Shown: positions 18,954-42,349, counted from the stretch's first letter. The stretch: 64,000 nt of DNA from Patescibacteria group bacterium (GCA_041651195.1 JBAZJR010000002.1:53857-117856); one strand, 5' to 3'. The notes: a model not told the origin generated them from the letters alone. Numbers and translations are program-made.

Positions 18954-19247
18954 CTAACTGAGCTTGATTTCCAGCTTACCGCCCAAGGCGGTTACCACTT
19001 TATCTAAAAAATTTACCGTAAAATTCTGCTGGCCACGTTCCAGTCGGGCGATATTGCTCTGGGTCGTACCGATTTTTTTTGCTAGAGCAGCTTGGCTAAT
19101 CTTACGACGCTTACGAAGCTGTAAAAGGCTATAGGCTAACTCTAGTTGCCGGCCATACTCATCAAAAAGACGTTTGGATTCGGGATTTTTCAGTTCTTCA
19201 GCCAAAATTTCGTCAAAATCGTCCGGCCTAAATATTTTCTTCTTCAT
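18954..19247 (-). CDS. XRE-family HTH antitoxin (HigA-like)
   Basis: ISQAALAKKIGTTQSNIARLERGQ helix-turn-helix. The likely start is MKKKIF at 19247. It overlaps the 3' end of the upstream toxin gene. Confidence 0.75.
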   Translation of the reverse strand: MKKKIFRPDDFDEILAEELKNPESKRLFDEYGRQLELAYSLLQLRKRRKISQAALAKKIGTTQSNIARLERGQQNFTVNFLDKVVTALGGKLEIKLS

Positions 19248-19614
19248 ATAATTCAGAATTATGGTTAATAATTTCATAATAGCGATTAAGTGCGATATTG
19301 ATTTCTCGTCGCGGCGTTTTGGCCGTCTTCTTCAAAAAAGCATGAATCATTACTATGGTCTTGCCGATAAAACAAAAATATAGGATACGATGATGATTAT
19401 TAGAAAAATCTACTCGTAACTCCCTGATTCCGCTAGTTATATGCCGGCTATACGGCTCATCCAAATATCCGCCGCGATCGCGCAAGTATCCGATATATTT
19501 ATATATCTTATTTCTCTGGCTGCGATCGAGATTATAGATGTAATCTCGGACCGGCCTTTTCCCGTTACTACAGTTCCGATAAAACTTAATCTTATACATT
19601 TCATTATATATCAT
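19228..19614 (-). CDS. Gp49/DUF891 (RelE/HigB-superfamily) toxin
   Basis: About 125 aa; KFYRN..GKRPVRDYI..L and IRELRV..HHRILYF fit the Gp49-like family. Toxin-first order with an XRE partner. An alternative start is the ATG at 19599. The inverted repeat TATATC-N6-GATATA (19607..19624) overlaps the start region. Confidence 0.7.
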   Translation of the reverse strand: MIYNEMYKIKFYRNCSNGKRPVRDYIYNLDRSQRNKIYKYIGYLRDRGGYLDEPYSRHITSGIRELRVDFSNNHHRILYFCFIGKTIVMIHAFLKKTAKTPRREINIALNRYYEIINHNSELYEEENI

Positions 19615-22033: not shown

Positions 22034-23306
22034 ATAATTTCTGCTTAGCTGAGAAATAATCTTTAAAGAATAAAGCCAGCAAAGCTAAATTTACCGCAGT
22101 AAACACAGCCAGCAAGGAATAGATGATCGCCCAGAAGTCGGCATGATAAAGACTCAACAGCAGGATCTCGGCTAACGCCCCGCCGCTCAGGATCACTAGG
22201 CCGGCCCGGCGCGATAGGGCCAAGAAATACTGGGAGATGACGGTCATGAGCGTCAGGAGCAGAATGACGACAGCGAAGAACGGCAAGTAAGGAATAAGAC
22301 TGAGGTATTTGGGGCCGACGACGAAGTTAATGGTAAAGCGCGGGAAAAAAATAATAAAAAGTGTCGTCGGGACAGCGAGGAGCGACATCAGCCCCAAGGA
22401 TTTCAGGAAAACACCATACTTCCGCAGGCTCGTATCGTCTTTCAAGCCGGCAATGACCGGGAACATCACGAGCGGGACGGAACCGCCGATAAAATAAATG
22501 ATGCGTCCGATGGTGAGGAGCGCGCCATAGAGACCGGCTTCTTCGGGAGAAAAAAATGATTTGACAAAAAGCATGTCAAAATTATAAAAAAACTGATATA
22601 GCGCCGTGAACCATAAGACTAGCGCCGCATAAGGAGCGAGCGCGCGCAAAGAGACTTTTAAGCCGGCCGCGGCAGACGGCCGATCCAGGTTACGGACCAG
22701 ATAAAAACTGACGGCAAGGGCCAAGAGGCTGGTTAGGCCGAGAGACCAGGCGGCGCCAATAAGATCATAGGGCCAGACGACGACGAGTGCGACGACGAGC
22801 AAGAGGCGAAAAACCGGTTCAGACAGATTAACTATGGACAAAGCGGAAAAACGCTGCAGGCCATTAAGCGTCGCGCGATTAACGGCGACCGGAAAAATAT
22901 AGAGCAGAAGCAAAGATGAAATAACCAGGATGGCCGATTCGCTGATCTTGAAAAGAGCATTGAGCGGCGCGGAAAAGATCAGGACCAGCAAAAAGAGCCC
23001 GCCACCGAGCAGAGATAAGCGCCAAATAGCGCGACGACGTAAGACACTTACCGACGCCGGCTGGCTAGCGGCTAAAACCGAAACTTCCTTCGTCAGGGTC
23101 GTAATGACAACCGCCGTGATTATCCCCAATACCGTCAAAAATGATTGTAAAGCTTGAAAATCGCCATAAGCCGGCACCGACAAGTGGCGGGTCAGGACCG
23201 GATGGACCAGATAATTCAAAGCCGAGCCAAGAAAACTCGCGGCCGTGAGGATAAAGGTGCCGAAGATGAATTTATCGCGCAGTAAAGACTTAAAATTTAA
23301 ATTCAT
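22017..23306 (-). CDS. Wzx/MOP-superfamily oligosaccharide flippase-like protein
   Basis: 429 aa with about 12 TM segments. The N-terminus FGTFILTAASFLGSALNYLVHPVLTRHL is typical of polysaccharide-biosynthesis flippases. Confidence 0.7.
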   Translation of the reverse strand: MNLNFKSLLRDKFIFGTFILTAASFLGSALNYLVHPVLTRHLSVPAYGDFQALQSFLTVLGIITAVVITTLTKEVSVLAASQPASVSVLRRRAIWRLSLLGGGLFLLVLIFSAPLNALFKISESAILVISSLLLLYIFPVAVNRATLNGLQRFSALSIVNLSEPVFRLLLVVALVVVWPYDLIGAAWSLGLTSLLALAVSFYLVRNLDRPSAAAGLKVSLRALAPYAALVLWFTALYQFFYNFDMLFVKSFFSPEEAGLYGALLTIGRIIYFIGGSVPLVMFPVIAGLKDDTSLRKYGVFLKSLGLMSLLAVPTTLFIIFFPRFTINFVVGPKYLSLIPYLPFFAVVILLLTLMTVISQYFLALSRRAGLVILSGGALAEILLLSLYHADFWAIIYSLLAVFTAVNLALLALFFKDYFSAKQKLYVGKN

Positions 23307-23310
23307 AAGG

Positions 23311-24435
23311 TCAGATAAGAAAATCTAGATAATTTTCACGATTAATAAGCTTGACAACGCTTTGCGGATAGGCCCGGGAAAATTCCTTGGGCGGGAAAAA
23401 ATTATTTTTTTGCCACTTAAACTCATAAGCGGATAAGACACCGCCCGCATCTTCGAGATAATCCAGCTCTTTGCCGTTAGTCGTCCGCCAAAAATAAATA
23501 TTCGCCGTCAAACCGAGATTATTATTCCGCTTCAACCTTTCGCTCACCATAAAATTTTCCCAGAGGGCGCCGACATCGGAACGCAAAGCGAGCGGATTAA
23601 GATTATTGATAAGCGCATTGCGCAGGCCGAGATCATAAAAATAAATCTTCCGTTTCTTTTTTAACTCGTTGCGGATATTGCGGGAGAACGGCCCGACACG
23701 GAAAATAATATAGGCCTGCTCCAAGATCCGGATATAACTTTCCACGGTTATCTTATTAGCGCCGACCACCTGCGCCAGCTCGCTATAAGAAACCTCGCTA
23801 CCAATCTGGAGCGCCAGGGCTTGCAAAAGTTTTTCTAAAAGTTCCGGATTACGAATATCCTGATAAGCCAAAACGTCTTTATAGGAGTAACTGGTGGCTA
23901 ATTCTCTGACCCGGCTTTCTTTATCAGAGCTGTTAAGAACCACACCCGGATACATCCCGAAGACTAATCTCTCGGCTAACAAGCGCTCTATTTCCAGGGG
24001 CGAGTATAACTGCTCTAATTCTTTGATGGAAAATGGGGCAAGGAAAAATTCTCTCTTCCGGCCGGTCAGAGGTTCGGAAATCTTACCGGAAAGTTCAAAG
24101 GAGGACGAGCCGGTGGCGATTACCTGCATCGCGGGAAAATTATCGGCAAGCAATTTTAAGGTCAAACCGATATTCTTCACGCGTTGCGCTTCGTCCAAGA
24201 CCACGAGACGGCGCGCGCCGATAAAAGATTTCAATTCCGTCGACGTCTTATCGGTCAAAGCTTCCCGGATATCCGGCTCGTCACAATTCAAATAAAGCGA
24301 ATCGTCCGAATGCTTAGCAAGGATCGCCTTGACCAGAGTCGTTTTCCCAACCTGGCGGGCGCCATAAAGCACGACTATCTTGCCTTTAAATAGCGCTTGC
24401 TCTATATCTCCTTGGATCATCCTAGTAACTGACAT
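23311..24435 (-). CDS. AAA-type ATPase with C-terminal DUF4143-like region (COG1373-type)
   Basis: Walker A GARQVGKTTL and Walker B LVVLDEAQ. The size and C-terminal pattern are as in DUF4143 ATPases. Confidence 0.8.
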   Translation of the reverse strand: MSVTRMIQGDIEQALFKGKIVVLYGARQVGKTTLVKAILAKHSDDSLYLNCDEPDIREALTDKTSTELKSFIGARRLVVLDEAQRVKNIGLTLKLLADNFPAMQVIATGSSSFELSGKISEPLTGRKREFFLAPFSIKELEQLYSPLEIERLLAERLVFGMYPGVVLNSSDKESRVRELATSYSYKDVLAYQDIRNPELLEKLLQALALQIGSEVSYSELAQVVGANKITVESYIRILEQAYIIFRVGPFSRNIRNELKKKRKIYFYDLGLRNALINNLNPLALRSDVGALWENFMVSERLKRNNNLGLTANIYFWRTTNGKELDYLEDAGGVLSAYEFKWQKNNFFPPKEFSRAYPQSVVKLINRENYLDFLI

Positions 24436-24493
24436 ATATATTATTTAGGTTATTATACTGACTTAAATATATATTATTTAGGTCATTATGTCA
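24434..24493 (-). repeat. 33-bp tandem direct repeat spanning the ATPase start codon and promoter
   Basis: Plus strand atatatattatttaggtTattat (24434..) and atatatattatttaggtCattat (24467..): 22 of 23 positions identical. Confidence 0.75.
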
Positions 24494-24494
24494 A
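24466..24494 (-). promoter_or_regulatory. candidate promoter of the ATPase gene
   Basis: Minus strand: TTGACA (24494..24489), 17 nt, TATATT (24471..24466). It lies in the distal repeat copy. Confidence 0.5.
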
Positions 24495-24508
24495 TTATAT
24501 CAATATAA

Positions 24509-24529
24509 ATAGCTAATATTAAATAAAAT
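24509..24529. repeat. cassette-bracketing motif, copy 1 (ATAGCTAATATTAAATAAAAT)
   Basis: The 18-mer GCTAATATTAAATAAAAT recurs exactly at 26429..26446. The 14-mer ATAGCTAATATTAA recurs as a reverse complement at 41016..41029 and 42311..42324. Confidence 0.8.
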
Positions 24530-24531
24530 TA

Positions 24532-25461
24532 TTATAAAAATAAGTTTTTTAAAAAAATATTTTCGAAAGCCACTATTCTTTTATCTTCCCGGCCTCTTAT
24601 TATATAGGATCGCCGACATTCTATTGTTCCGCCCTTAAAATAAAAATTGACTGCGACGATTATCGCTAAATTACTAGCGGGTAGTGAATTTTTGATCCGA
24701 TCTAACTCTTTGGCTATATAATCCAGACTAAAATGATGGGATGAGCCGGACGACAAATCAATGATCAATACGGAAGATCTTTGCGCGGCGGAACGACTAT
24801 TCTTAGCTAATATCAAACTTAAAAGATCTTTTGAGCCCGTTATGAATTCAATTTTCAAGGCGTAATCGACTTTATTACTCAGGCAGACTACTTTCCTCTC
24901 ACCGGGAATAAGCGGCATAGAGACCGAGCCGCCGAATCTAGGTTGCAAATTAAGATCATAAATATTATTGGAGATACTCCTCTTCTCTAACAATAAAAAT
25001 AAGTCTCTCTTTAAGGCCGCTAATATCTCCTTGATCTGGAAGGTTTTCAATCTTATCTCTATTTCGAAATCCTTATAACCGGCCAATGCCGTAGATTCGA
25101 TAAAGTTTTCTATTTTTGATTTTATCAAATCTTCATTGTCGCCTAAGCGAGTTAGCTCAATACCTAAAGAGTCTAATAGTAAAAAATCCAGAGGCGGGTT
25201 TCCCATTTCTAAACTATCTAATATTCCCAGCCTCTTAAATTTATAGGCCAGTAATAACTGGACAAAATTTCGATTGATATCAATCTGCCCTTCCCGAAAA
25301 GATTTAACAAAGTTATCACAAATAATCTTAGCGCCAGGAACATCACTCAGCTCATCAAGACAAGAACATAAAGCATTCATATATCCCGTCTTATTAAAGA
25401 CGGCGCTACTGGCAATAAAATTAAGATCTTCCTTAGAGATTAATTTAAGATTTAAGTTCAT
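24532..25461 (-). CDS. hypothetical 309-aa protein, no recognised domain
   Basis: Uninterrupted ORF in an AT-rich cassette between the Bro-N-like gene and the ATPase gene. Confidence 0.6.
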   Translation of the reverse strand: MNLNLKLISKEDLNFIASSAVFNKTGYMNALCSCLDELSDVPGAKIICDNFVKSFREGQIDINRNFVQLLLAYKFKRLGILDSLEMGNPPLDFLLLDSLGIELTRLGDNEDLIKSKIENFIESTALAGYKDFEIEIRLKTFQIKEILAALKRDLFLLLEKRSISNNIYDLNLQPRFGGSVSMPLIPGERKVVCLSNKVDYALKIEFITGSKDLLSLILAKNSRSAAQRSSVLIIDLSSGSSHHFSLDYIAKELDRIKNSLPASNLAIIVAVNFYFKGGTIECRRSYIIRGREDKRIVAFENIFLKNLFL

Positions 25462-25487
25462 GGAGATACTTGTATTTAACTTTTTTC

Positions 25488-25510
25488 TTAGCCATAAATT
25501 TAGATAATTA
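25488..25510 (-). repeat. 23-nt exact copy of the Bro-N gene leader plus start codon
   Basis: The plus strand ttagccataaatttagataatta is identical to 26362..26384. It includes an ATG (25495) that opens a 16-codon uORF overlapping the 309-aa ORF start. Confidence 0.8.
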
Positions 25511-25532
25511 TTTTGCTCTCGCGAGGCGACGA

Positions 25533-26369
25533 CTACTCAATCTCATGCTTTTTCCGCCCTAAGAAATTATGCGGACTGACAATTTTAGCGCCAGATTGTT
25601 TTTCAATATCTTTCCTGGTTCGTCCGGCGACAGAACCGCCGTCACTAGCGTCTTTTTTAAGAGGCCTAAAACCTTGCGAATCACGAGTTTGAGTCAATTT
25701 AGTCGTCGTCGCTTCGGCCAGCATTGTCAAAATAAGTTCCATATCCTCCATATGGTCGCGTAAATTTTCTCGGTCCAAGCCTTTTAATTTTTTATAATCT
25801 TCAACTTTCAAGCCGAAAGCGCTCTCCATGATTTCGTTGGTTAAAATCGCATATTCTAAACTATTTTTAGCGCCTCTCTCTCGCCATTCGTCAGTCAAGC
25901 TATGACGGACAGCAATACCCCGGCTTCTCTTGTCAATCCAATCCTTAGGATACCCCTTTTTCTCATAAAGCGCCTTCATCCGATCCATGGCTAATTCGGG
26001 ATTTTCAATCTCTTGAAGGCGTTCTTGGCCGACTTTTGCCAACCATTGTTTAAATGGTTCGGCTTTAGGGGAAGGGATTGACTGAATAATACGGAAAATG
26101 CCTTGCAAGCCAGAACAATTTACTTTTTGAATACCGCCGCTAGTTTCAATCGAAAGGGGGGTGGCAATTTGCCCCCACCCTTTTGAAAGTTCTTCGTCTC
26201 TCCGACGCATATCTTTTACATACCCCTCCGGTTGCACGGAATTAGTCAACACTCGAACAACATCAACAATAGCAAAATACCATTGTTCATTATGCCAAAC
26301 ACGACGAACCGGATCATTTTCGAATAAGGCAATATTTTTGCCAGTAGTTTTGTCAGCATTTTTAGCCAT
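25533..26369 (-). CDS. Bro-N / DinD-like (phage antirepressor-type N-terminal domain) protein
   Basis: FENDPVRRVWHNEQWYFAIVDVVRVLTNS and SPKAEPFKQWLAKVGQERL resemble the Bro-N domain pattern. The assignment is by motif resemblance only. Confidence 0.55.
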   Translation of the reverse strand: MAKNADKTTGKNIALFENDPVRRVWHNEQWYFAIVDVVRVLTNSVQPEGYVKDMRRRDEELSKGWGQIATPLSIETSGGIQKVNCSGLQGIFRIIQSIPSPKAEPFKQWLAKVGQERLQEIENPELAMDRMKALYEKKGYPKDWIDKRSRGIAVRHSLTDEWRERGAKNSLEYAILTNEIMESAFGLKVEDYKKLKGLDRENLRDHMEDMELILTMLAEATTTKLTQTRDSQGFRPLKKDASDGGSVAGRTRKDIEKQSGAKIVSPHNFLGRKKHEIE

Positions 26370-26384
26370 AAATTTAGATAATTA
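26362..26384 (-). repeat. 23-nt leader/start repeat, copy 2
   Basis: Identical to 25488..25510. Contains the Bro-N-like gene ATG (26369). Confidence 0.8.
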
Positions 26385-26398
26385 ATCATTATCACCTG

Positions 26399-26407
26399 AT
26401 TATAACA
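26399..26407 (-). promoter_or_regulatory. extended -10 element upstream of Bro-N-like gene
   Basis: Minus strand TGTTATAAT (TGnTATAAT), about 30 nt upstream of the ATG. Confidence 0.4.
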
Positions 26408-26428
26408 GCTTTAATAATCATTATAAAG

Positions 26429-26446
26429 GCTAATATTAAATAAAAT
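26429..26446. repeat. cassette-bracketing motif, copy 2
   Basis: GCTAATATTAAATAAAAT, identical to 24512..24529. Confidence 0.8.
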
Positions 26447-26517
26447 ATTTATAAAGTTATTATAAAGAAAAGATAAAATTAAAAAATGCCTGAAATCGAA
26501 GGGATAAGCTTATCCAC

Positions 26518-28245
26518 TCATTCAATCTCATAAACTAATAAAGTCGGGGTCTCTTTAATCAACTGTAAATAAGGCCGCGTATTAAGCCATAAATAAGAAG
26601 CGAAGTCGACTTCTTTCGCCAAGATGATATAGCGCACCGGCGAACCGGCCAGAAGCGGCGCCCCGCTCCGCCCTTGATCCGCGAGCCAGGCGGCTATAAT
26701 CTGGCCGTCCGCGCTCTGGCTATTGTCATAGATCCCGCCCCATTCCATATTCGTGCCGCTTAAAATCTGGCAAGTGAAAAAATGCGGCGCCGGATTAGCC
26801 ACGATCTTCCCTACCCAATTAAAATGCATATACAGATGCCAGGGTAAAAATAAGATCCGATCATTACAGCCGTAAGACTGCGCGGCGCGGTTGATTAAAA
26901 ACTGATCAGTCTCATACCAATCGGCCGGATAGGGCGTCGGGATAACCTGACGATTAAAACCCCAAAGCAAGGATGGCGCGGCCATGATAATGACCGCGGC
27001 CAGAATAACGCCAGCCACAGCCCGGTTCGCGGACGCTATCTTAGCCTGCCGAAGCTTGGCCGCGCCGATAGTCAGATAATATAGATAAATCGGAATAATG
27101 ACCGCCACCCATTTCTGCGGCTCGCGCAGACCTTTATAGAAAGGCAGGTGATCATAGAGAAAGAGATTTAGGCCACGCACTAAGGGTACTTTAACGCCAA
27201 AAGCAAGCACGACTGCGGCGATAAATATTAAAATCAGGCCGACGCTAAATATTTTTTCCTTCTTGGAGCGGCGCCGAAAACTTATAAATACTCCATAGAT
27301 AATAAGAGGAGCCAGAAAGATAAAACTCCTCTGCCAGCCCGGCGTCGTCGTCAGATCCAGATAACGATACTGATCCTTGCCCCAGAAGCCGCTCATGAGT
27401 AATACATTAGACAAGGTTTCACCCGGCGTCTTACCGGCGGTCTGAAAAGCGGCTAAGTCCTGGGCTGTAATTCCCTGATCAACAAAATTAGCCAAAGGCG
27501 AGGCTTTAAGAGCCAGGGCAATCAGCCAATTAGCGTTGACGATTAAAACAATGAAAAAAGAAAATAATAGCGCTAGCCAGAATTTTTTAGTCTGACCGGC
27601 CGCCTTAATCTCTTGGCGCCTAAAGAATACACTTATCAAGAATAATAAATAAAAAGGGACAAGTAAAAAAATAAAATGGATGGAAAATAATAAGGCAATG
27701 GCGGTAAATAGAGCGGCGCGCCACAAGAGCTTAAAATTAAAAGTCCGACTGGCTTCAAGCAGATAAGCTAAAACGAATAATAAGCAGCCATAGGCGGCCA
27801 GAATGCCAAACTGACCATAGAGAGCGCGATCGTAAACGAAGGGATTAAATAAGGCGAAGAGGCTGAGGATAAAAATTGACCCCCGGGAAGGAAAGGACAA
27901 AACGGCGATGGGCGCTTTCTCTCCTTGATCAGTATCGCGATATTCCAAGATAGCTTTAACTAGTACTCGCCCGCCAAACAAAATTAAAAACAAAACAGCG
28001 GCAATAAATATTTTTTCTAAAATCGCGAAAGAAAAGACAAAAGAAAAACCCTTAATGATTAAATTTAGTAAAAATCCAGAACTAATCCAGTTTAATGGGA
28101 TATTCGTCCCCCAGACCATATCGGTAAAAAAAAGGTGGCCGGACTTTAAAAACCAAGGTGCAACAATCATTAAAATAACCAAAATATAAGCCCAAAATAG
28201 GGATAAGGGGTTATAAAATTTTAATTTATTTAGTAATTTTTTCAT
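26518..28245 (-). CDS. 575-aa polytopic membrane protein, possible GT-C-type glycosyltransferase/polymerase
   Basis: At least 12 predicted hydrophobic helices and a C-terminal soluble region of about 120 aa. ATGA overlap with the upstream 928-aa gene. Backbone-like GC. The function is inferred from context only. Confidence 0.65.
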   Translation of the reverse strand: MKKLLNKLKFYNPLSLFWAYILVILMIVAPWFLKSGHLFFTDMVWGTNIPLNWISSGFLLNLIIKGFSFVFSFAILEKIFIAAVLFLILFGGRVLVKAILEYRDTDQGEKAPIAVLSFPSRGSIFILSLFALFNPFVYDRALYGQFGILAAYGCLLFVLAYLLEASRTFNFKLLWRAALFTAIALLFSIHFIFLLVPFYLLFLISVFFRRQEIKAAGQTKKFWLALLFSFFIVLIVNANWLIALALKASPLANFVDQGITAQDLAAFQTAGKTPGETLSNVLLMSGFWGKDQYRYLDLTTTPGWQRSFIFLAPLIIYGVFISFRRRSKKEKIFSVGLILIFIAAVVLAFGVKVPLVRGLNLFLYDHLPFYKGLREPQKWVAVIIPIYLYYLTIGAAKLRQAKIASANRAVAGVILAAVIIMAAPSLLWGFNRQVIPTPYPADWYETDQFLINRAAQSYGCNDRILFLPWHLYMHFNWVGKIVANPAPHFFTCQILSGTNMEWGGIYDNSQSADGQIIAAWLADQGRSGAPLLAGSPVRYIILAKEVDFASYLWLNTRPYLQLIKETPTLLVYEIE

Positions 28246-31028
28246 TCTGCTATTTGTTTAACCTTATTTTTATTATCTTCTTGTTTTCTTTTTCTTCTCT
28301 TTACAAAGTCATAGCCTAGGTAGATAAAGCAACCAAATAATGTCATCATAGAAACCCCTAAACCTATATAAAAATACTTTTGTGGCTCGAATTCAACATA
28401 AACTGAGAAGTCATAAGTACCGTCTATTTTCTTTTTAATCAAACCTTGCTGTTCTAATTCTCCGACATCAACCCACCAGGAATTAGCAAAACCGTTCATT
28501 ATAAAATGTTCATCATTCAAAACAGGTTTTCTAAACATTAGGTCATAAAATCTTCCGTCATATATATTTTCGTTCTGGATAGTTCCTTGATTATTATTAC
28601 TAATGAATTGCCCCACACCGTGGCCGATTAAATTGGGCTGAACATATATTTTCCAACCGGGGTGAAAACTCTCGGAAAATATTAGGGGAAAAGATTCGCT
28701 TGCCCCGGTAACATTAACAATATATTTTGTCGGATTAATTTGTTTATATTCTAACTGAGGTGTTTTAATCGGCTCACTCAAATTCTCGGCGAAAAAGATA
28801 ACATCGCCGGAATTGATAGAGTCCACTAACATATCTTCAACATAAATCTTAAAATCGTATTCTCCTCTATCTAATTCTATTTGGTCAAAATAAGCCCATC
28901 CCTCCCGGTTCGTCCCTGTCCCATCTTTTCCCAATACTTCATTATTTATTTTAATACTAATATTTATACTATTTGCCAAAACACTGCCTTGCTTGAAATA
29001 TATTTTATAGATTGCTTTAACGGGAATATTTAATCGAAAATCTCTAATGAAGGCGCCGCTAGTATACAAATTTAAATCGCTTTGTAATTTTTTCTTTATC
29101 CCTTGATCCGTTGTATCATCTATGGCCAATTTCATTGTTTCTATTTTATCTCGATTAGCACTTACAAGAATAAAAATACTATTAATATTTTTTGAAATAT
29201 TCTTATTTGATGATTCATCTAATTTTAAATCGGGAAAAATTATTCCAGTTTGTGGATTATAATTATTAAAATAAAAAGGTTGATCAATAAAATTTGAATT
29301 ATTAATTATATAAGAAATGGCAGTCGGGGAATATATCTGCGGTAATAAATAATTTTCATTCATCAAATAAAAATCTAATTTGTCGAATGTCTTTATTTTT
29401 TCATACTTCAATAAAATATCTGACACAACACTGGGGGATTGTGAAATATTATTATAATATAGCCAATCAAAATCGTTTCTCTGGATTATATATTTTACAT
29501 TTAAAATTGTCATTAAATTTTCAAAATTTGGATAATCTTTAGTCAATAAATATTTATAAGCGCTGAGCGCTATTCTATTGTCTTTAGTTTCACTACTGCC
29601 CGGTCTTCTTATAATCAAACTCTTGTCAAATAATGTCTCTGGATTGGCATTTGTCTTGCCCCAGTCAAAAACTGCAAAATACTGGGCTGGCATCAAAAAT
29701 ATTCTAGAAATCTGCTTATCTTTTTTTAGAAAATTCATGGCTTCATAATAATAAGACGGGATTTCTTTTATTTTTATATCTTCTGCAAAACATTTCCACA
29801 TAAAAAATGGGAATGCGTTAATCACAATAAGAACTGACAATAGCGCGGTCACGACATTTCTTAATCTAATGTTTTTTATGTTTATCAATAAATATACAGA
29901 CAGAACGGCCAACCCAAAGATATAAACTTGGATAAATTTATAATTTCCTCTGAACATTGCGAATAAAGGCACATTATAATATGCCCATTCATATAAACGC
30001 GCAAAAATACCTTGATTAGTAGCTACCACCATAGGTATAGACAAAATAATCAAAAAAATCACCCAGAATATCCGTTTGCTATTTTTGATAAAAATTATAC
30101 TTGATAATACTATTAACGGTAAAAGATACAGACTGAAAATCAATAATAAATTTTTTAAATAGACGGAAGAATATCTAAAGTAAGGCTCTCCTTCCCATCC
30201 CTGATCAAAGCTTGCTAGCCCTAAAGTTCTGAATACGTTGAGATACGAGCTGGCCTGATTATGACCATATATTGATTCCGATAAAATAGCTGATATATCT
30301 ACTGGGCCTAAGAAATAAAACAAAATACCAGATATCCAATAAAAATTAATCAATAATACGACGAAGAAAGACAGAATTAATTTCTTTAATATATCCTTAT
30401 ATTGACTCAACAAATGATAATTTGAAAATAAATGGAAAGAATAAATAAGTAATACTATCAAGTTAATAGCTATAAGCGGTGGATTTATTCCGGTCATAAA
30501 CAAAACTACAAAAGCCAATCCGATACTATATCTAAAGTAATTTTTGGTTAATAATATCTTATTTATAAAATAAAGCTGTAAAGGCAAAACAACATAAGGT
30601 AGAAGCAGGATGGAATAACCTTGCGTAAAATTTGTGAGGGTGTATAGATTAAAAATATATAGAAAACCGCCCACATATGTATAAATCGAAGTGTTATTAA
30701 ATTCATTTTGAATAAATTTAATAAAAGAGTAAAAACCAACCCATAAAATCAATGCAAAAAAAATCGTCTGACTAGTGCTAATACTAAAGAACCATGAAAA
30801 AAAATAATATATAAAACAGTATGGGAATATATATGATTGACCCCATACCATGGAGCGCCCAAGTGATAAAATATTATCCCAACTATAAAATAGCTTAAAG
30901 AAAGCTTGGGTGGGATTAATGAGTGAATTAAAATTAGAATCTACAATAAATTCACCATTGGGCTTTAAAAAAATGAGGAACAGAAAGAGAAACAGTAAGG
31001 ACATGATGACATTTTTTTTAAAACGCAT
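28242..31028 (-). CDS. 928-aa polytopic membrane protein with large C-terminal extracytoplasmic domain, possible GT-C-type enzyme
   Basis: The N-terminal ~450 aa are highly hydrophobic and multi-TM. A soluble region of about 430 aa and a final TM plus basic tail follow. Very low GC. The function is inferred from context only. Confidence 0.65.
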   Translation of the reverse strand: MRFKKNVIMSLLFLFLFLIFLKPNGEFIVDSNFNSLINPTQAFFKLFYSWDNILSLGRSMVWGQSYIFPYCFIYYFFSWFFSISTSQTIFFALILWVGFYSFIKFIQNEFNNTSIYTYVGGFLYIFNLYTLTNFTQGYSILLLPYVVLPLQLYFINKILLTKNYFRYSIGLAFVVLFMTGINPPLIAINLIVLLIYSFHLFSNYHLLSQYKDILKKLILSFFVVLLINFYWISGILFYFLGPVDISAILSESIYGHNQASSYLNVFRTLGLASFDQGWEGEPYFRYSSVYLKNLLLIFSLYLLPLIVLSSIIFIKNSKRIFWVIFLIILSIPMVVATNQGIFARLYEWAYYNVPLFAMFRGNYKFIQVYIFGLAVLSVYLLINIKNIRLRNVVTALLSVLIVINAFPFFMWKCFAEDIKIKEIPSYYYEAMNFLKKDKQISRIFLMPAQYFAVFDWGKTNANPETLFDKSLIIRRPGSSETKDNRIALSAYKYLLTKDYPNFENLMTILNVKYIIQRNDFDWLYYNNISQSPSVVSDILLKYEKIKTFDKLDFYLMNENYLLPQIYSPTAISYIINNSNFIDQPFYFNNYNPQTGIIFPDLKLDESSNKNISKNINSIFILVSANRDKIETMKLAIDDTTDQGIKKKLQSDLNLYTSGAFIRDFRLNIPVKAIYKIYFKQGSVLANSINISIKINNEVLGKDGTGTNREGWAYFDQIELDRGEYDFKIYVEDMLVDSINSGDVIFFAENLSEPIKTPQLEYKQINPTKYIVNVTGASESFPLIFSESFHPGWKIYVQPNLIGHGVGQFISNNNQGTIQNENIYDGRFYDLMFRKPVLNDEHFIMNGFANSWWVDVGELEQQGLIKKKIDGTYDFSVYVEFEPQKYFYIGLGVSMMTLFGCFIYLGYDFVKRRKRKQEDNKNKVKQIAE

Positions 31029-31133
31029 ATCAATAATTTACTTATATTTAAGATATAATACTCCTAATAACACTTGGCAAATACCATCGGCATCGGGCTA
31101 TAATTTTTTTCATCTATCTTTAGACGATTATTT

Positions 31134-31790
31134 TTAAATTTGATAATCTATTTCCACTATAATATGGCAAGATTTAAATAAAAGCAAAATCAGCGATTTA
31201 AAAAAACTATATTTATTTTGTTTTATTAAATTTATTTTTGTCCTTACCCCTATATCAAATAAATAATTACTTACTTTAAAAGTATACCCACTATTTTTTA
31301 GCAATTTCTCTATATCTTCCTTGGATCTTAAAATCTCATTTCCAAAATCTTGATTTTTATAAACATCTGATGGTACTGAAAATATCATTTTTTTCGATAG
31401 AGAAGAAAAATTTTTTATTATTTGAATAAATTCAAAATCATTAAAATGTTCCATTAACCCTTGCGAAATTATAAAATCAAATTTTGGCAGCCTCTCTATT
31501 TCATTTCTATCTAAAATATTTATATTAAAAAAATTCTCAATTTTGTCGGAAGTATTTTTTTTTATTCTTTCTAATAATTTTTTATCAGAATCAAGAACTG
31601 ACACCTTTAGTTTTGGTAATATTTTTTTAAGCCACAAAGCATGCTGGGCGGGGCCGCAACCAATTTCTAATAGTTTTTCGGGGTTATAAAAAATTATTTT
31701 TATCAAATAATGGTAATGTAAAAGGATATTTGCCGCTGAAAGGTTCCGTTCAGCGTAATACTCGTTCCATGTTTTATCATTAGTCTGCAT
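31134..31790 (-). CDS. class I SAM-dependent methyltransferase
   Basis: LLEIGCGPAQHALWL (motif I) and FDFIISQGLMEHF (motif II/III). Confidence 0.75.
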   Translation of the reverse strand: MQTNDKTWNEYYAERNLSAANILLHYHYLIKIIFYNPEKLLEIGCGPAQHALWLKKILPKLKVSVLDSDKKLLERIKKNTSDKIENFFNINILDRNEIERLPKFDFIISQGLMEHFNDFEFIQIIKNFSSLSKKMIFSVPSDVYKNQDFGNEILRSKEDIEKLLKNSGYTFKVSNYLFDIGVRTKINLIKQNKYSFFKSLILLLFKSCHIIVEIDYQI

Positions 31791-31808
31791 AACTTTTAAA
31801 ATTAGATT

Positions 31809-32903
31809 CTACAGTAAATCTCTAAATACTTTAATATATGCTTCTGCCGTTTTATCCCAACTAAACTGCTTAGAAAAACTATAATTAGAGCTTATTAATT
31901 CATCTCTTTCCCTCTCTCCAAGTTTAATCATGTTGATCATTTTATCAGAAATATCTTTTAAACTACGGGGGTCAACAAGCCAATTCTTATTAGGTGTGAT
32001 TTCTATCAGCGAACTGTTGCAAGATGTAATAACAGGGCACTCGCATGCCATGGCTTCTAAAACCGGGAAACCGAAACCTTCGTAAAAAGATGGGTAAATA
32101 AAAAATTCTGCATTTTCATAAAAGTTTATTAATTGGTCCTCGTTCGCATATCCCCACAATATAACATCATTAATTAAACCAAGTCTTTCAATTACATCTC
32201 TTAATTCAGCCAGTTGATTCTCATCAATTAGACCTGCGATAAGATATTTATATTTTTTCAATTCTGCATTGTTAGACATTACCTCTAATACACTAATGAT
32301 GTTTTTCCTTTTCGGGCTAGTCGTAATGGAAAAAAAATAATTTTCTTTAACAATCCTTTCTTTTCTAATTTTATTTAAAAAAATACTGTTAATACCCGAA
32401 TAAACAACTTTTATTTTATTGTCTGGAATTTTATAGAATTTTATTATATCCTTCTTTGTACTCTCTGAAACAGAGATAATAATATCAGCGATTCTTAGTG
32501 ATCTTTTTAAAAAATACTTATAATAAAAATTAAATATTTTGTTGTAATGTTTCGGATAAATTAGAAACGCCAAATCATGCACAGTTAAAACATATTTAAC
32601 ATTTTCTCTCTTAAAAAATGGCAAAATATGAGCAGGGCCATGAAAGATGTTAATTTGTTCTTTTCTAATCAATTTATTAACAAAAAAAATGTCAAACAAC
32701 AAAGTGCCTAACAAATTTTTAAATACTTTAATTACCTTGGTATCACCGATTCGTTTCGAACCATCTGTTTGAAAAAATACAAATGATAAATCATTTTGGC
32801 TCTTGACCAAATTGTCATAAAGGCATTTTATATAATAAGGTATGCCCGTATTTTCTTGTTGATAGATTCTTGAATTTATACCTACTTTCACAATATTCGC
32901 CAT
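31809..32903 (-). CDS. GT4-family (GT-B) glycosyltransferase
   Basis: FIYPSFYEGFGFPVLEAMACECPVITS is the EX7E-type motif of Glycos_transf_1. Confidence 0.85.
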   Translation of the reverse strand: MANIVKVGINSRIYQQENTGIPYYIKCLYDNLVKSQNDLSFVFFQTDGSKRIGDTKVIKVFKNLLGTLLFDIFFVNKLIRKEQINIFHGPAHILPFFKRENVKYVLTVHDLAFLIYPKHYNKIFNFYYKYFLKRSLRIADIIISVSESTKKDIIKFYKIPDNKIKVVYSGINSIFLNKIRKERIVKENYFFSITTSPKRKNIISVLEVMSNNAELKKYKYLIAGLIDENQLAELRDVIERLGLINDVILWGYANEDQLINFYENAEFFIYPSFYEGFGFPVLEAMACECPVITSCNSSLIEITPNKNWLVDPRSLKDISDKMINMIKLGERERDELISSNYSFSKQFSWDKTAEAYIKVFRDLL

Positions 32904-32908
32904 ACTTA

Positions 32909-34096
32909 TTATTTGATAAAATTGTTTAGATTTTCTATTAATTCATAAATTCTTTTACTGGAATCTCCATCAATAAATTTATTAAAAAATATTTTGAAAT
33001 CTAAATATTTTTTTTGATATGAAGCATCTAAAAAAATACTATCAATATCTTTAATCATCTGTAAAAGGATATTTTCATTATCTGCAAATGGCCCGGGTAA
33101 AATTTTATAATAATCATGTACCAGCTCCCTATTTCTAGTATAATTTTCATAATCATAGGGATAAAATATTACCGGCCTATTCATCAAACAGAAATCTGAA
33201 ACTACGCTAGAGTAATCTGTGATTAAAATATCTGCAAATATCAAGAGCTCTTGCGGATCATCAATTTCATTCGAAAGATCAACGATATTAGAATAGTTCT
33301 CAAAAATAAATTTATTGGCAAGCAGCGGATGATTTTTTATGACGAATAAATAATTATTTTTAAATAAATAATCATTAATTTTAGCCAAGCCAGAGCCTGA
33401 GAATGGTTTCATTTCATCTAGGCTATCCCTAAAAGTAGGGAGATAGGCGATAACCTTCTCATACCTCTCAAACTCTTTTTTATACTTGAAGCTAATATCT
33501 TCTTTATTTAAAAAAAATATATCGTTTCTTGGATATCCAGTTACAATAATTCTATTATTCTTAAAAAAATTCCTTTGCGCATTCTCAAACTCAACTGAAG
33601 ACGAAATAATAACTTTATATAATTTTGATTCCCTGAACCAAAAAAAATTTAACAACTTATAAAATAAATTTTCTGGTCCAATATTAAAATCTAATTTTTT
33701 TAAGCCCACTCCGTGCCATAAATTAATAATATTAAAGTTTCCCAAAAGAAAAGTTATCCCAGTGATATCTTGAGCTGCTGATTCAATCACTAAATATTTG
33801 GCTCTCAAAATCTGCCACATACCAAAAAATGAGTAGAGATATGCTACTGGTTTTGAGTCTGCTTTTAATAAATCGAGTATTTTTAAACTTCTGGTAATCC
33901 AAACTGGATTATATTTACAATCTTTTTTATTTAATAAATAAAGATAAAAATATTTAGGATTCCCTGTAAATTTACGGCCGAAATAAGAACCAAATATTAT
34001 TAAATTATTTTTCTTTGGAATGATATAAGAAAAAAACCAATAAAAGGGGATGAATAATAAATTTAATAATATTTTTTTAAAATTTATCATAAACAA
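32909..34096 (-). CDS. CDP-polyol phosphotransferase of the TagF/TarL (Glyphos_transf) family
   Basis: N-terminal TM. YLPTFRD and ITDYSSVVSDFCLMNRPVIFYPYDYENY are characteristic of TagB/TagF/TarL enzymes. Confidence 0.8.
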   Translation of the reverse strand: MFMINFKKILLNLLFIPFYWFFSYIIPKKNNLIIFGSYFGRKFTGNPKYFYLYLLNKKDCKYNPVWITRSLKILDLLKADSKPVAYLYSFFGMWQILRAKYLVIESAAQDITGITFLLGNFNIINLWHGVGLKKLDFNIGPENLFYKLLNFFWFRESKLYKVIISSSVEFENAQRNFFKNNRIIVTGYPRNDIFFLNKEDISFKYKKEFERYEKVIAYLPTFRDSLDEMKPFSGSGLAKINDYLFKNNYLFVIKNHPLLANKFIFENYSNIVDLSNEIDDPQELLIFADILITDYSSVVSDFCLMNRPVIFYPYDYENYTRNRELVHDYYKILPGPFADNENILLQMIKDIDSIFLDASYQKKYLDFKIFFNKFIDGDSSKRIYELIENLNNFIK

Positions 34097-34108
34097 TGGT
34101 TGCGCTAG

Positions 34109-35014: not shown

Positions 35015-35018
35015 ATTT

Positions 35019-37239: not shown

Positions 37240-37347
37240 AAATAAGCTAAAAATAATATTACTAGTTTTTTATAACTTTTCTCAAAATTTATTTTTTGTC
37301 CCATTACTAGTTATTAACTTTATATTTATTTTGATTACAGTTATATT

Positions 37348-38821: not shown

Positions 38822-38822
38822 T

Positions 38823-40861: not shown

Positions 40862-40907
40862 AAATATACTACTTTTTAAACATACAATGCTTAAAAAGAT
40901 ATAACTA

Positions 40908-40915
40908 ATTATACA
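40908..40915 (-). promoter_or_regulatory. TGTATAAT -10-type element upstream of uxs
   Basis: Minus strand GTGTATAAT, 47 nt upstream of the uxs ATG. The same 8-mer occurs at the mraZ and GY-protein promoters. Confidence 0.4.
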
Positions 40916-40925
40916 CTTTGATATG

Positions 40926-40943
40926 TTTTAAGTATACTTAAAA
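40926..40943. promoter_or_regulatory. perfect 18-bp palindrome TTTTAAGTATACTTAAAA (candidate operator)
   Basis: Self-complementary over all 18 nt. It overlaps the -35 position of the uxs promoter candidate. Confidence 0.55.
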
Positions 40944-40965
40944 TTAACAACGATTTTATAATATA

Positions 40966-40983: not shown

Positions 40984-41015
40984 CTCTTAAAAAAGTAAAA
41001 CATAGATTATTATCA

Positions 41016-42348: not shown

Positions 42349-42349
42349 A

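What the first reader, a model, noticed from the sequence alone, without database searches (positions are those of the whole stretch)
24509..26446. Exact 18-bp direct repeat brackets a two-gene AT-rich cassette
Seen:
- GCTAATATTAAATAAAAT occurs at 24512..24529, immediately after the stop of the 309-aa ORF.
- It occurs again at 26429..26446, just upstream of the Bro-N-like gene promoter. Looser similarity continues for about 10 more nt.
- Together the two copies enclose exactly the Bro-N-like gene plus the 309-aa unknown (about 1.9 kb). This segment is of intermediate-low GC and sits between backbone-GC genes.

Inference: the repeats could be a target-site duplication or attL/attR-like cores left by insertion of a small cassette. 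Alternatively they could be a shared regulatory (UP-element or terminator-proximal) module. No integrase or transposase lies in the window, so mobilisation would have to act in trans.
Basis: seen in the sequence. Interest (0 to 1): 0.6.

Follow-up and report, generated by a model that had tools for sequence, protein, structure and literature searches.

The report
Reused promoter block, not insertion scar
The repeated 18-mer is real, but it is the conserved upstream block of a promoter that these candidate-phylum bacteria reuse in front of many different accessory (candidate defence) genes, not the scar of a two-gene mobile cassette.

Summary
GCTAATATTAAATAAAAT is exact at 24512 and 26429, extends to 25/27 nt, and is longer than any repeat in 500 local shuffles.

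The TSD/att interpretation is not supported. In at least 12 related Patescibacteria the 575-aa gene (M575) is followed directly by the flippase gene, usually overlapping it. So the real insert is the 3.2-kb block Bro-N + 309-aa gene + DUF4143 ATPase, and the empty site lacks the 18-mer.

All local genes are on the minus strand. Read in that direction, the repeat (TTTATAAAT-ATTTTATTTAATATTAGC) lies at about -37 to -63 of a promoter.

An unbiased scan of 185,579 species genomes found the block 11 times, only in Patescibacteria-type MAGs. Across 17 instances:
- 14 have TTGAYA/TTGAAA starting 1 nt after the 18-mer, a 17-nt spacer and a TATAAT-type -10 (13 with an upstream TG).
- TTTAT tracts are phased every 11 nt.
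- Cargo genes differ: Bro-N/DinD, RhuM, NYN, AlbA_2, nucleotidyltransferase.

Module and cargo have uncoupled histories. It is a new family of reused ("mobile") promoter in front of genes embedded in a glycan cluster. Interest is moderate.

The parts
26429..26455 (-). R27 copy B (18-mer core 26429-26446). Distal block of the promoter module that drives the Bro-N gene. On the minus strand it reads TTTATAAATATTTTATTTAATATTAGC.
   Evidence: D6. The same 27-nt block occurs in L050, L076, L027, L028 and others.
24512..24538 (-). R27 copy A (18-mer core 24512-24529). The same block overlaps the stop codon of the 309-aa ORF and lies upstream of the ATPase promoters. Only this block is shared with copy B (25/27; best 50-nt window 35/50).
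   Evidence: nhmmer gives 27.5 bits, E = 1.4e-6.
26370..26476 (-). Full promoter module B. TTTAT tracts are phased every 11 nt. Then come the 18-mer, -35 TTTATA (26427-26422), a 17-nt spacer, TG-extended -10 TATAAT (26404-26399) and a leader of about 29 nt up to the ATG at 26369.
   Evidence: promoter scan, 10/12, TG present; nhmmer 62.6 bits; phasing at -31, -20, -9, +2.
24466..24522 (-). Two overlapping promoter-like sites for the ATPase downstream of copy A: TTAATA(24522-24517)-17-TGATATAAT(..24494), and TTGACA(24494-24489)-17-TATATT(24471-24466).
   Evidence: 10/12 with TG, and 11/12.
25533..26369 (-). Bro-N/DinD-like gene (278 aa), in PADLOC candidate-defence family PDC-S13.
   Evidence: PF02498, 1.9e-10; PDLC04920, 3.5e-108; at least 8000 relatives across phyla.
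24532..25461 (-). 309-aa gene of unknown function. It is intact. Its few relatives (about 55% identity) sit inside glycan clusters of other Patescibacteria with no adjacent Bro-N gene.
   Evidence: No Pfam, NCBIfam or PADLOC hit. The AF2 model has low confidence.
23311..24435 (-). AAA_14/DUF4143 ATPase (374 aa), in PADLOC candidate family PDC-S01. It is the third gene of the inserted block.
   Evidence: (3.7e-153; absent from this junction in relatives).
26359..26384 (-). D7 copy 2: the last 15 nt of the module leader, the ATG and the first codons of Bro-N (TAATTATCTAAATTTATGGCTAAAAA).
   Evidence: (D7). The same leader and MAKN start occur in L050 and L076.
25485..25510 (-). D7 copy 1: an orphan copy of the same leader and ATGGCTAA, 22 nt after the Bro-N stop. 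It opens a 16-codon mini-ORF that is out of frame with the 309-aa ORF.
   Evidence: The 309-aa N-terminus aligns with its homologues at the annotated ATG.
23307..26517 (-). The true inserted block (3.2 kb, three genes) relative to the conserved order AftD-M575-Flip429-U206-U480.
   Evidence: M575 and the flippase are adjacent or overlapping in L018, L019, L021-L024, L029, L059, L060, L026-L028 and L055.
26518..26538 (-). Left copy of the ancestral M575/flippase overlap segment (GTTTATGAGATTGAATGA), now serving as the 3' end of M575.
   Evidence: Relatives read GTTTATGAAATTAAATxTTAA, which serves both genes.
23292..23310 (-). Right copy of the same segment (CCTTATGAATTTAAATTTT), now the flippase start, 4 nt after the ATPase stop. 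It matches the left copy at 11/17.
   Evidence: The independent L020 insert shows the same duplication at 15/17, with 12 exact.

Best explanation
The two 18/27-nt copies are two instances of the distal (upstream) block of a promoter module specific to one bacterial lineage. They are not the ends of an inserted element.

Read in the direction of transcription (minus strand), the module is, in order:
- 2-4 TTTAT tracts phased every 11 nt
- ATTTTAT(T/C)TAATATTAGC, which contains the palindromic core (C/T)TAATATTAG centred near -42
- one base
- a -35 hexamer TTGAYA or TTGAAA
- a 17-nt spacer
- a TG-extended TATAAT
- a short leader and the ATG

In Falkowbacteria-like Patescibacteria this module precedes many different accessory genes that sit embedded between conserved genes. 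These are Bro-N/DinD (PDC-S13), RhuM, NYN, Schlafen/AlbA_2, a nucleotidyltransferase and, in the window, a DUF4143 ATPase (PDC-S01).

In the window a three-gene block has been embedded between M575 and the flippase gene, which overlap in relatives.
- Module copy B probably drives Bro-N and the 309-aa gene as one transcription unit.
- Copy A consists of the 27-nt block only, joined to different core promoters. It heads the next unit, the ATPase.
- The repeats appear to bracket a cassette only because one transcription unit ends where the next begins.

What is shown:
- the position and conservation of the block
- the promoter architecture
- the diversity of cargo genes
- the empty site
- mosaicism between module and cargo

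What is inferred:
- The block works as an UP-element or curved-DNA activator, or as a binding site for a dimeric regulator.
- The predicted promoters are actually used.
- Bro-N and the 309-aa gene are co-transcribed.
For: 1. Fixed promoter geometry. In 14 of 17 instances a -35 hexamer starts 1 nt after the 18-mer, with a 17-nt spacer and a TATAAT-type -10 scoring 9-11 of 12. TG is present in 13 of these. The window sites were also found independently by the promoter scan.
2. Unbiased ascertainment. The pattern TTTATNNNNATTTTATYTAATATTAGC contains no promoter hexamers. It hit 11 places among 185,579 species genomes, all in Patescibacteria-type MAGs. Ten had an ORF of at least 60 aa starting 30-161 nt downstream on the same strand.
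3. Cargo genes are non-homologous: Bro-N, RhuM, NYN, SLFN_AlbA_2 with HATPase_c_4, and a Pol-beta nucleotidyltransferase.
4. TTTAT tracts lie at -31, -20, -9 and +2. The tract at -20, which the search pattern did not require, is present in 13 of 17 instances.
5. Specificity. An nhmmer profile found only the 6 seed instances plus L011 and L025 in about 740 kb. In L025 the module again precedes a DinD-like gene; L011 is cut by its contig end.
6. Copy B matches modules that drive non-homologous genes at 46/50 (L073), 44/50 (L075) and 43/50 (L028, L072).
7. Empty site. M575 and the flippase are adjacent or overlapping in at least 12 relatives and have no 18-mer at the junction.
8. Bro-N relatives carrying the module have a single upstream copy, not a flanking pair (L050, L079, L071).
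9. There is no hairpin potential: fold z-scores are +0.38 and +0.13. No Rfam family matches.
Against: - There are no transcription data, so promoter use, UP-element function and regulator binding all rest on sequence.
- Copy A shares only 25/27 nt with the module and its downstream promoter is different. It could be a relic rather than a working element.
- L069 has an exact 18-mer with no recognisable promoter after it.
- A 1-mismatch copy at 42304 lies antisense inside the AbiEi coding start. The block is therefore not always promoter-associated.
- Exact conservation of 18 nt across species whose M575 proteins are only 51-64% identical is stronger than is usual for UP elements. That leaves room for a more specific role, either protein binding or recombination.
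Confidence: 0.8

Rival explanations
1. Recombination handle. The module copies are promoters, but they also serve as portable homology. Genes lying between two directly repeated module pieces are gained or lost by homologous (Campbell-type) recombination or by template switching. On this view the R27 pair, and especially the D7 pair, are junction products of such events.
For: - The D7 pair (23 nt exact) brackets Bro-N alone, and its second copy is an orphan leader and ATG that is out of frame with the next gene.
- Bro-N/DinD relatives elsewhere are flanked by direct repeats of local sequence: L017 55 nt at 89% plus 23 nt; L014 40 nt at 98%; L024 45 nt exact.
- Module and cargo histories are uncoupled: window vs L050 84% module / 55% coding; window vs L071 64% / 79%.
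- L073 is L072-like for 104 nt upstream of the 18-mer and L076-like downstream. L072 and L073 are orthologous loci with swapped cargo.
- Identity between copies A and B stops sharply at the ends of the 27-nt block.
Against: - No polymorphic (deleted) allele was found. The only other assemblies of this organism are identical.
- 27 nt is short for RecA-dependent recombination.
- Mosaic promoters can also arise from ordinary recombination over long times, with no dedicated mechanism.
- The flanking repeats in L017, L014 and L024 are made of different, local sequences, not of the module.
Confidence: 0.25
2. Operator for a regulator. The conserved feature is the near-palindrome (C/T)TAATATTAG centred near -42. 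It would be bound by a dimeric transcription factor, acting as an activator at a class-II-like position or as a repressor overlapping the -35. That would make the accessory or defence genes one regulon. It would not simply be an RNA-polymerase alpha-subunit UP element.
For: - The majority variant contains a perfect 10-bp palindrome, CTAATATTAG.
- The block is conserved exactly while the promoter spacer varies freely.
- The core 10-mer GCTAATATTA occurs 5 times in the window against 0.26 expected. All five lie at the edges of embedded accessory blocks, including AbiEi/AbiEii.
- Divergent modules in L011 and L025 keep CTA-N4-TAG.
Against: - No candidate regulator has been identified.
- The window's own copies have an imperfect palindrome, TTAATATTAG.
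- Invariance of the core among the genome-scan hits is partly built in, because the search pattern required it.
- The phased T-tracts point to curvature or an UP-element function.
Confidence: 0.3
3. One reading: the 18-mer pair is a target-site duplication or attL/attR core produced when a two-gene cassette (Bro-N + 309-aa gene) was inserted by a transposase or integrase acting in trans.
For: - The two copies are in direct orientation and enclose exactly two ORFs and one promoter.
- The segment has lower GC (34-44%) than its flanks.
Against: - The empty site in at least 12 relatives is the M575/flippase overlap, and it has no 18-mer.
- The insert is three genes long.
- The 309-aa gene's relatives never accompany a Bro-N gene.
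- The same block occurs singly upstream of unrelated genes in other genomes.
- No terminal inverted repeats and no recombinase among the inserted genes.
- The real duplicated target at this junction is the overlap segment GTTTATGAAATT..., seen clearly in L020.
Confidence: 0.04
4. A chance repeat in AT-rich intergenic DNA.
For: - The sequence is 89% A+T and lies in intergenic DNA of 21% GC.
- Under that harsh composition model, 7 of 500 shuffles reach 18 nt.
Against: - None of 500 regional shuffles reach 18 nt.
- The repeat extends to 25/27.
- Exact or 1-mismatch copies recur at the same promoter position in many other genomes.
Confidence: 0.01

Closest known systems
Putative mobile promoters / promoter reuse (Matus-Garcia, Nijveen & van Passel, NAR 2012, PMC3488235; Mob Genet Elements 2012, PMC3575422)
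   Same: Highly similar upstream sequence of 50-100 nt lies in front of non-homologous genes and is shared between genomes. Window copy B matches modules that drive AlbA_2, RhuM and NYN genes at 43-46 of 50 nt. The paper's proposed routes include recombination-mediated duplication and HGT.
   Different: - Within this genome the two copies share only 27 nt (35/50), below the paper's intragenomic threshold.
- The family is confined to one Patescibacteria lineage.
- It has a defined architecture: phased T-tracts, a palindromic core and a consensus extended -10 promoter.
- It is associated specifically with embedded accessory or candidate-defence genes.
- No IS or MITE ends are attached.
UP element / phased A-tract curved DNA upstream of strong sigma-70 promoters (for example E. 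coli rrnB P1; from my own knowledge)
   Same: An A/T-rich block sits immediately upstream of the -35, at about -37 to -63. T-tracts are in helical phase. The core promoter is near-consensus.
   Different: - It is exactly conserved over 18-27 nt across species, which is far more than is typical for UP elements.
- It contains a palindrome, which suggests a dimeric protein site.
- Its function is untested, and RNA-polymerase alpha-subunit recognition in Patescibacteria is uncharacterised.
Embedded defence genes ('guilt-by-embedding'; Payne et al., bioRxiv 10.1101/2024.01.29.577857) and defence islands
   Same: - Small accessory genes (PDC-S13 Bro-N, PDC-S01 DUF4143 ATPase, AbiE, HTH-Fic) are inserted between the genes of a conserved multi-gene system, in the same orientation as that system.
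- Different cargo occupies the same junction in different genomes.
   Different: - The host system here is a glycan or cell-envelope biosynthesis cluster, not an RM, BREX, DISARM or Hma system.
- The PDC families are untested candidates.
- The paper does not mention a shared promoter module.
Integron cassette arrays / attC sites (from my own knowledge)
   Same: Co-oriented small accessory genes are separated by a recurring short repeat. Cargo varies at a fixed locus.
   Different: - The repeat lies 5' of its cargo as part of a promoter, not 3' as a recombination site.
- It has no attC-like imperfect hairpin (fold z-scores about 0).
- No integron integrase was seen.
- Each cargo gene has its own promoter.

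Membership tests
Target-site duplication of a transposable element | Related genomes have an empty site that holds one copy of the repeated sequence. | tested here: not met
   The empty site is the M575/flippase overlap in at least 12 loci. No 18-mer with up to 3 mismatches lies at any of these junctions.
Target-site duplication of a transposable element | The repeats abut element ends that carry terminal inverted repeats and/or a transposase. | tested here: not met
   No inverted repeats lie at the inner edges of the two copies. The enclosed genes are a Bro-N protein and an unknown protein with no transposase domain.
Target-site duplication of a transposable element | The duplicated sequence is a local target sequence and is not found elsewhere in the same functional context. 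| tested here: not met
   The same block lies upstream of unrelated genes in at least 13 other loci.
attL/attR core of an integrase-mobilised island | A tyrosine or serine recombinase is encoded in or next to the element. | tested here: not met
   None is present among the three inserted genes or their immediate neighbours. The rest of the window was not screened.
attL/attR core of an integrase-mobilised island | An attB containing the core is present at the unoccupied site. | tested here: not met
   The junction sequence in relatives is GTTTATGAAATTAAATxTTAA, which is unrelated to the 18-mer.
Sigma-70-type promoter with an upstream (UP-like) element | -35 and -10 hexamers with a 16-18 nt spacer lie at a fixed distance downstream of the A/T-rich block. 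| tested here: met
   14 of 17 instances: offset 1 nt, spacer 17, score 9-11 of 12, TG present in 13. Window copy B scores 10/12 with TG.
Sigma-70-type promoter with an upstream (UP-like) element | A gene starts shortly downstream on the same strand. | tested here: met
   10 of the 11 unbiased genome hits have an ORF of at least 60 aa starting 30-161 nt downstream. In the window the genes are Bro-N (26369) and the ATPase (24435).
Sigma-70-type promoter with an upstream (UP-like) element | A mapped transcription start, and dependence of promoter strength on the upstream block or the alpha C-terminal domain. | not testable with these tools
   This needs RNA 5'-end mapping, reporter assays or in-vitro transcription.
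Putative mobile promoters (PMP; PMC3488235) | At least 50 nt at 80% identity or more upstream of non-homologous CDSs, compared between genomes. | tested here: met
   Copy B against L073 (AlbA_2) 46/50, L075 (RhuM) 44/50, L028 and L072 (NYN) 43/50, L027 42/50, L070 41/50, L078 40/50. Criterion quoted.
Putative mobile promoters (PMP; PMC3488235) | The same criterion applied within one genome. | tested here: not met
   Copy A against copy B: best 50-nt window 35/50. Only the 27-nt block is shared. Only 64 kb of the genome was available.
Integron attC site / cassette array | An imperfect palindrome able to fold as a single-stranded hairpin, placed 3' of each cassette ORF. | tested here: not met
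   DNA fold z-scores are +0.38, +0.13 and -0.80, no better than shuffles. The block sits 5' of its cargo at a fixed promoter distance.
PADLOC candidate defence families PDC-S13 and PDC-S01 (the cargo genes) | A full-length match to the family HMM. | tested here: met
   Bro-N protein against PDLC04920: 3.5e-108, profile positions 5-271 of 286. ATPase against PDLC04789: 3.7e-153, positions 1-373 of 375.
PADLOC candidate defence families PDC-S13 and PDC-S01 (the cargo genes) | Demonstrated anti-phage activity. | not testable with these tools
   The PDC systems are described as 145 untested candidates.

The most novel reading that the evidence does not exclude
The module would be more than a reused promoter. 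It would be the standard 5' adaptor of an integrase-free cassette system in Falkowbacteria-like Patescibacteria.

- Accessory or defence genes would be exchanged between genomes, and between junctions of conserved operons, by recombination at the invariant module blocks: the 27-nt block and the leader-ATG block D7.
- Each incoming gene would then be instantly expressed, and possibly co-regulated through the palindromic core.
- Directly repeated module pieces, such as the R27 and D7 pairs in this window, would be the footprints of that process and the substrates for excision.
Probability: 0.2. Interest if true: 0.65.

Novelty: new member of a known kind. Interest (0 to 1): 0.35.

Why it matters
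- Promoter architecture and gene regulation in the uncultivated Patescibacteria (CPR) are almost unknown. This result gives a concrete, testable promoter: phased T-tracts, a conserved 18-27-nt block, TTGAYA, a 17-nt spacer and TGnTATAAT. It is conserved across species and heads a recognisable set of accessory or candidate-defence genes (Bro-N/DinD, RhuM, NYN, AlbA_2, DUF4143 ATPase).
- The module can serve as a sequence tag for finding embedded accessory genes in these genomes, and as a candidate part for expressing genes in or from CPR bacteria.
- It also shows that cell-envelope glycan clusters in these organisms act as insertion sinks, with different cargo at the same gene junction.
- For the scan itself, it is a cautionary case. 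Direct repeats that seem to bracket a cassette can simply be the heads of two consecutive transcription units.

Tried and rejected
- Strain-level empty site. Exact-protein look-ups of Bro-N, the 309-aa protein, the ATPase and M575 returned only the source contig (ERZ27247363 k141_3113987, 185 kb) and identical short contigs from SRR8542065. No alternative allele was found.
- Functional pairing of Bro-N with the 309-aa gene. Rejected, because the 309-aa relatives (P0002-P0005) never neighbour a Bro-N gene.
- Frameshifted N-terminus of the 309-aa ORF as an explanation for D7(1). Rejected, because the annotated ATG aligns with the homologues' N-termini.
- Structure of the 309-aa protein. The AF2 model had mean pLDDT 49.7 and pTM 0.37, too poor for a fold search, so none was run.
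- Known ncRNA. Rfam at E <= 1 on 23000-27000 gave only a spurious viral hit inside the Bro-N coding region.
- Hairpin, terminator or attC reading. Fold z-scores were about 0, and no terminator is predicted at either copy.
- Phage origin. There were no exact hits in 2.9 million viral contigs for the 27-nt pattern, for the 18-mer plus -35, or for the D7 leader.
- Tandem module array in Falkowbacteria contig JAPLVZ010000012. The two hits, L072 and L076, are not adjacent.
- Literature. Nothing was found on 'PDC-S13' or on Patescibacteria promoters with an UP element.
- A sharp recombination breakpoint 2 nt after the 18-mer between L072 and L073 (ungapped measure). Gapped BLAST softened this: similarity continues at lower identity through the -10, and cargo diverges after that.
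Full report
**1. The observation**

GCTAATATTAAATAAAAT is present exactly at 24512-24529 and 26429-26446 on the + strand. The similarity extends to 27 nt with 25 matches: 24512-24538 against 26429-26455 (family D6).

It is more than chance. The longest exact direct repeat in 500 dinucleotide-preserving shuffles of 23000-28500, or of 24400-26520, never exceeded 17 nt. Even 2.1 kb of sequence with the 21%-GC composition of the local spacers reached 18 nt in only 7 of 500 shuffles.

First, every gene in this neighbourhood is on the minus strand. Both copies therefore lie upstream of a gene: the Bro-N gene (26369..25533) and the AAA_14/DUF4143 ATPase (24435..23311). Second, there is a longer repeat, D7, 23 nt exact and 25/26 overall, at 25485-25510 and 26359-26384.

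**2. What the genes are**

- The 278-aa protein has a Bro-N domain and a DinD-like C-terminal part. It matches the PADLOC candidate family PDC-S13 over its full length (3.5e-108).
- The ATPase matches PDC-S01 (3.7e-153). These PDC families are untested "guilt-by-embedding" candidates.
- The Bro-N protein has at least 8000 relatives, with about 70% identity across bacterial phyla and in archaea.
- The 309-aa protein has no family hit. It has only four relatives, at about 55% identity. An AlphaFold model was too poor to use.
- The flanks are cell-envelope glycan genes: a GT-C_AftD protein, a 575-aa MmpA-like membrane protein (M575) and a Polysacc_synt flippase.
- The source is a 185-kb contig of a Patescibacteria MAG.

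**3. The empty site**

A metagenome scan with M575 returned 48 related loci, and tblastn mapping of the window's proteins gave their synteny. In L018, L019, L021-L024, L029, L059 and L060 the M575 gene is followed directly by the flippase gene. The flippase start lies inside the last codons of M575 (GTTTATGAAATTAAATxTTAA). In L026-L028 and L055 the gap is 11-85 nt.

The conserved order is AftD-M575-Flip429-U206-U480. In the window, therefore, the whole segment 26517..23307 is an insertion: Bro-N, the 309-aa gene and the ATPase. The ATPase is not backbone. None of the empty junctions carries the 18-mer.

The same junction is occupied by a different insert, an HTH-Fic pair, in L020 and L051. Neighbouring junctions hold a Bro-N-like gene (L050, L072), a DinD-like gene (L024) or a DUF4143 ATPase (L056).

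The sequence actually duplicated at this junction is the M575/flippase overlap segment. In L020 the insert is flanked by GTTTATGAAATTGAATC and GTTTATGAAATTAAACC (12 exact, 15/17). In the window the two copies are GTTTATGAGATTGAATG (the end of M575) and CCTTATGAATTTAAATT (the flippase start), at 11/17.

The relatives of the 309-aa gene sit in other positions of glycan clusters and never next to a Bro-N gene. There is thus no evidence that the two genes between the repeats form a unit.

**4. What the repeat is**

Exact copies of the 18-mer occur in L024 and L050. One-mismatch copies occur in L013/L014 and in L027/L028.

Read in the gene direction, the block is TTTATAAAT-ATTTTAT(T/C)TAATATTAGC. 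It is followed after one base by TTGATA or TTGAAA, a 17-nt spacer and TG(C/T)TATAAT.

A profile built from six instances found only two more copies in about 740 kb of related DNA: L025, again upstream of a DinD-like gene, and L011, where the contig ends just past the module. The element is therefore specific, not a generic intergenic motif.

For an unbiased test I scanned one genome from each of 185,579 species with TTTATNNNNATTTTATYTAATATTAGC, a pattern that contains no promoter hexamers.
- It gave 11 hits, all in Patescibacteria-type MAGs. These were Falkowbacteria, "Patescibacteria group", and several records titled Gammaproteobacteria that carry the same kind of locus.
- There were no hits in viral contigs.
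- Ten of the 11 have an ORF of at least 60 aa starting 30-161 nt downstream.
- The downstream genes are Bro-N, RhuM, NYN, SLFN_AlbA_2/HATPase_c_4, a Pol-beta nucleotidyltransferase and an unknown protein.

Across all 17 instances:
- 14 have the -35 hexamer exactly 1 nt after the 18-mer, a 17-nt spacer and a -10, scoring 9-11 of 12. TG is present in 13 of them.
- TTTAT tracts recur at -31, -20, -9 and +2, an 11-nt phase.
- The majority variant contains a perfect 10-bp palindrome, CTAATATTAG, centred near -42. The window's copies have TTAATATTAG.

The block cannot fold better than shuffled sequence, and it matches no Rfam family.

**5. Reading of the window**

Module copy B (26476..26370) is a complete module. 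It has three phased T-tracts upstream of the 18-mer, the 27-nt block, TTTATA-17-TGTTATAAT and a leader ending at the Bro-N ATG. No terminator-like site is predicted between Bro-N and the 309-aa gene or after the latter, so the two are probably co-transcribed. That is an inference.

Copy A consists only of the 27-nt block, which overlaps the stop codon of the 309-aa gene. It is followed by different promoter-like sites (TTAATA-17-TGATATAAT and TTGACA-17-TATATT) that head the ATPase. Copies A and B share 25/27 nt, but their best 50-nt window is only 35/50.

The repeats therefore mark the starts of two consecutive transcription units inside a three-gene embedded block.

**6. Mobility of the module**

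Copy B matches modules in front of non-homologous genes in other genomes at 40-46 of 50 nt. That meets the inter-genome criterion for "putative mobile promoters".

Module and cargo have different histories:
- window vs L050: 84% module, 55% coding
- window vs L076: 82% module, 62% coding
- window vs L071, which has the closest Bro-N allele: 64% module, 79% coding

The window, L050 and L076 share the same leader, ATG offset and MAKN start in front of divergent Bro-N proteins.

L072 and L073 are orthologous loci, 86% identical over 913 nt up to the -10. Their cargo differs, NYN against AlbA_2, and both are followed by a shared RhuM fragment. L073's spacer and leader are of the L076/window type.

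The D7 pair in the window consists of the leader, the ATG and the first codons. It is repeated 22 nt after the Bro-N stop as an orphan, out-of-frame 16-codon ORF. Direct repeats of local sequence also flank Bro-N/DinD genes elsewhere: L017 (55 nt at 89%, plus 23 nt), L014 (40 nt at 98%) and L024 (45 nt exact). These suggest that such genes are gained by duplicative or recombinational events. I could not find a polymorphic allele to prove it.

**7. Verdict**

The TSD/att interpretation is not supported.

The best description is a lineage-specific, reused promoter module that heads accessory or candidate-defence genes embedded in a conserved glycan cluster. It is a new member of a known kind (promoter reuse). 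The interest is moderate and lies mainly in CPR promoter biology and in tracing embedded accessory genes.

The more novel possibility is that the invariant module blocks also act as recombination handles for integrase-free cassette exchange. The evidence does not exclude this, but it does not show it either.

Noticed in passing
window 25485-25510 and 26359-26384: A second direct repeat, D7 (23 nt exact, 25/26), made of the module leader, the ATG and the first codons of Bro-N. It brackets the Bro-N gene alone (spacing 874 bp). The downstream copy opens an orphan 16-codon ORF (ATG at 25495) that is out of frame with the 309-aa ORF.
   Followed up: partly
L017 2847-2901/3766-3820 and 2906/3865; L014 3729-3768/4697-4736; L024 3140-3184/4184-4228: Bro-N/DinD-type genes in three other lineages are each flanked by direct repeats of local sequence: 55 nt at 89% plus 23 nt; 40 nt at 98%; 45 nt exact. 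In L017 the repeat covers the promoter, leader, ATG and first codons of the next gene. In L024 it covers the 3' end of the upstream gene. This suggests duplicative insertion of these single genes.
   Followed up: partly
window 41009-41040 and 42304-42321: An AbiEi/AbiEii pair (41036-42357) is embedded between a UDP-glucose dehydrogenase and an epimerase, two genes that are adjacent in L007. The core GCTAATATTA occurs at both of its ends. One copy lies inside the AbiEi 5' coding region (a 1-mismatch 18-mer, antisense, 23/27 to window copy A). Two copies lie just after the AbiEii stop. In total there are 5 core copies in the window against 0.26 expected. This is unexplained.
   Followed up: partly
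window 24412-24477: A tandem duplication of about 33 nt (73% identity; inner unit ACCTAAATAATATATAT exact, twice) covers the leader and start codon of the DUF4143 ATPase. It could be a duplicated initiation region or a pair of operator sites.
   Followed up: no
window 26379 (end of Logan contig L068) and 26181 (start of L003): In sample SRR8542065 the assembly of this organism breaks five or six bases into D7 copy 2 and resumes inside Bro-N. The contigs are otherwise 100% identical to the window. The break could reflect low coverage or strain heterogeneity at the Bro-N junction.
   Followed up: partly
window 28000-39000: About 11 kb of 22-35% GC, against roughly 50% for the backbone, spans glycosyltransferase, methyltransferase and AftD genes. 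It is probably a horizontally exchanged variable part of the glycan cluster.
   Followed up: no
window 42340-42375 and 40900-40990; L007 4300-4340: AT-rich palindromes that may be operators. ATAATACACATATATGTATATTAT lies after a TTGACA-17-TATAAT promoter upstream of AbiEi, and a similar palindrome occurs in L007. TTTTAAGTATACTTAAAA-like palindromes occur twice upstream of the epimerase gene.
   Followed up: no
window 26502-26515: A perfect 14-nt palindrome, GGATAAGCTTATCC, lies immediately after the M575 stop at the left edge of the inserted block.
   Followed up: no
L004 7780-7830; L007 4520-4700; L069; L072 7076-7357; L073 (rc) 7495-7821: Decayed fragments of RhuM-like and YhcG/DUF1016-like genes recur in the spacers of these loci. 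A RhuM fragment forms the conserved 3' flank of the swapped cargo in L072 and L073.
   Followed up: partly
window 18954-19614: A Gp49 (HigB-like) plus HTH pair, probably a toxin-antitoxin module, lies just beyond the conserved U480 gene. It is another small accessory insert near the cluster.
   Followed up: no
L069, L071, L073, L077-L079 (genome contigs records): Several MAG records titled 'uncultured Gammaproteobacteria bacterium' carry Patescibacteria-type loci. CAYMCJ010000018.1 is the same contig as L008, which holds the 321-aa relative of the 309-aa gene. The record titles look mislabelled.
   Followed up: no
L069 3891-3908 (+): An exact copy of the window's 18-mer variant has no recognisable promoter after it. 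It is in inverted orientation to the full module on the same contig (7461-7487). Its downstream bases (TTATTTAATTGA) resemble those after window copy A (TATTTATATTGA).
   Followed up: no
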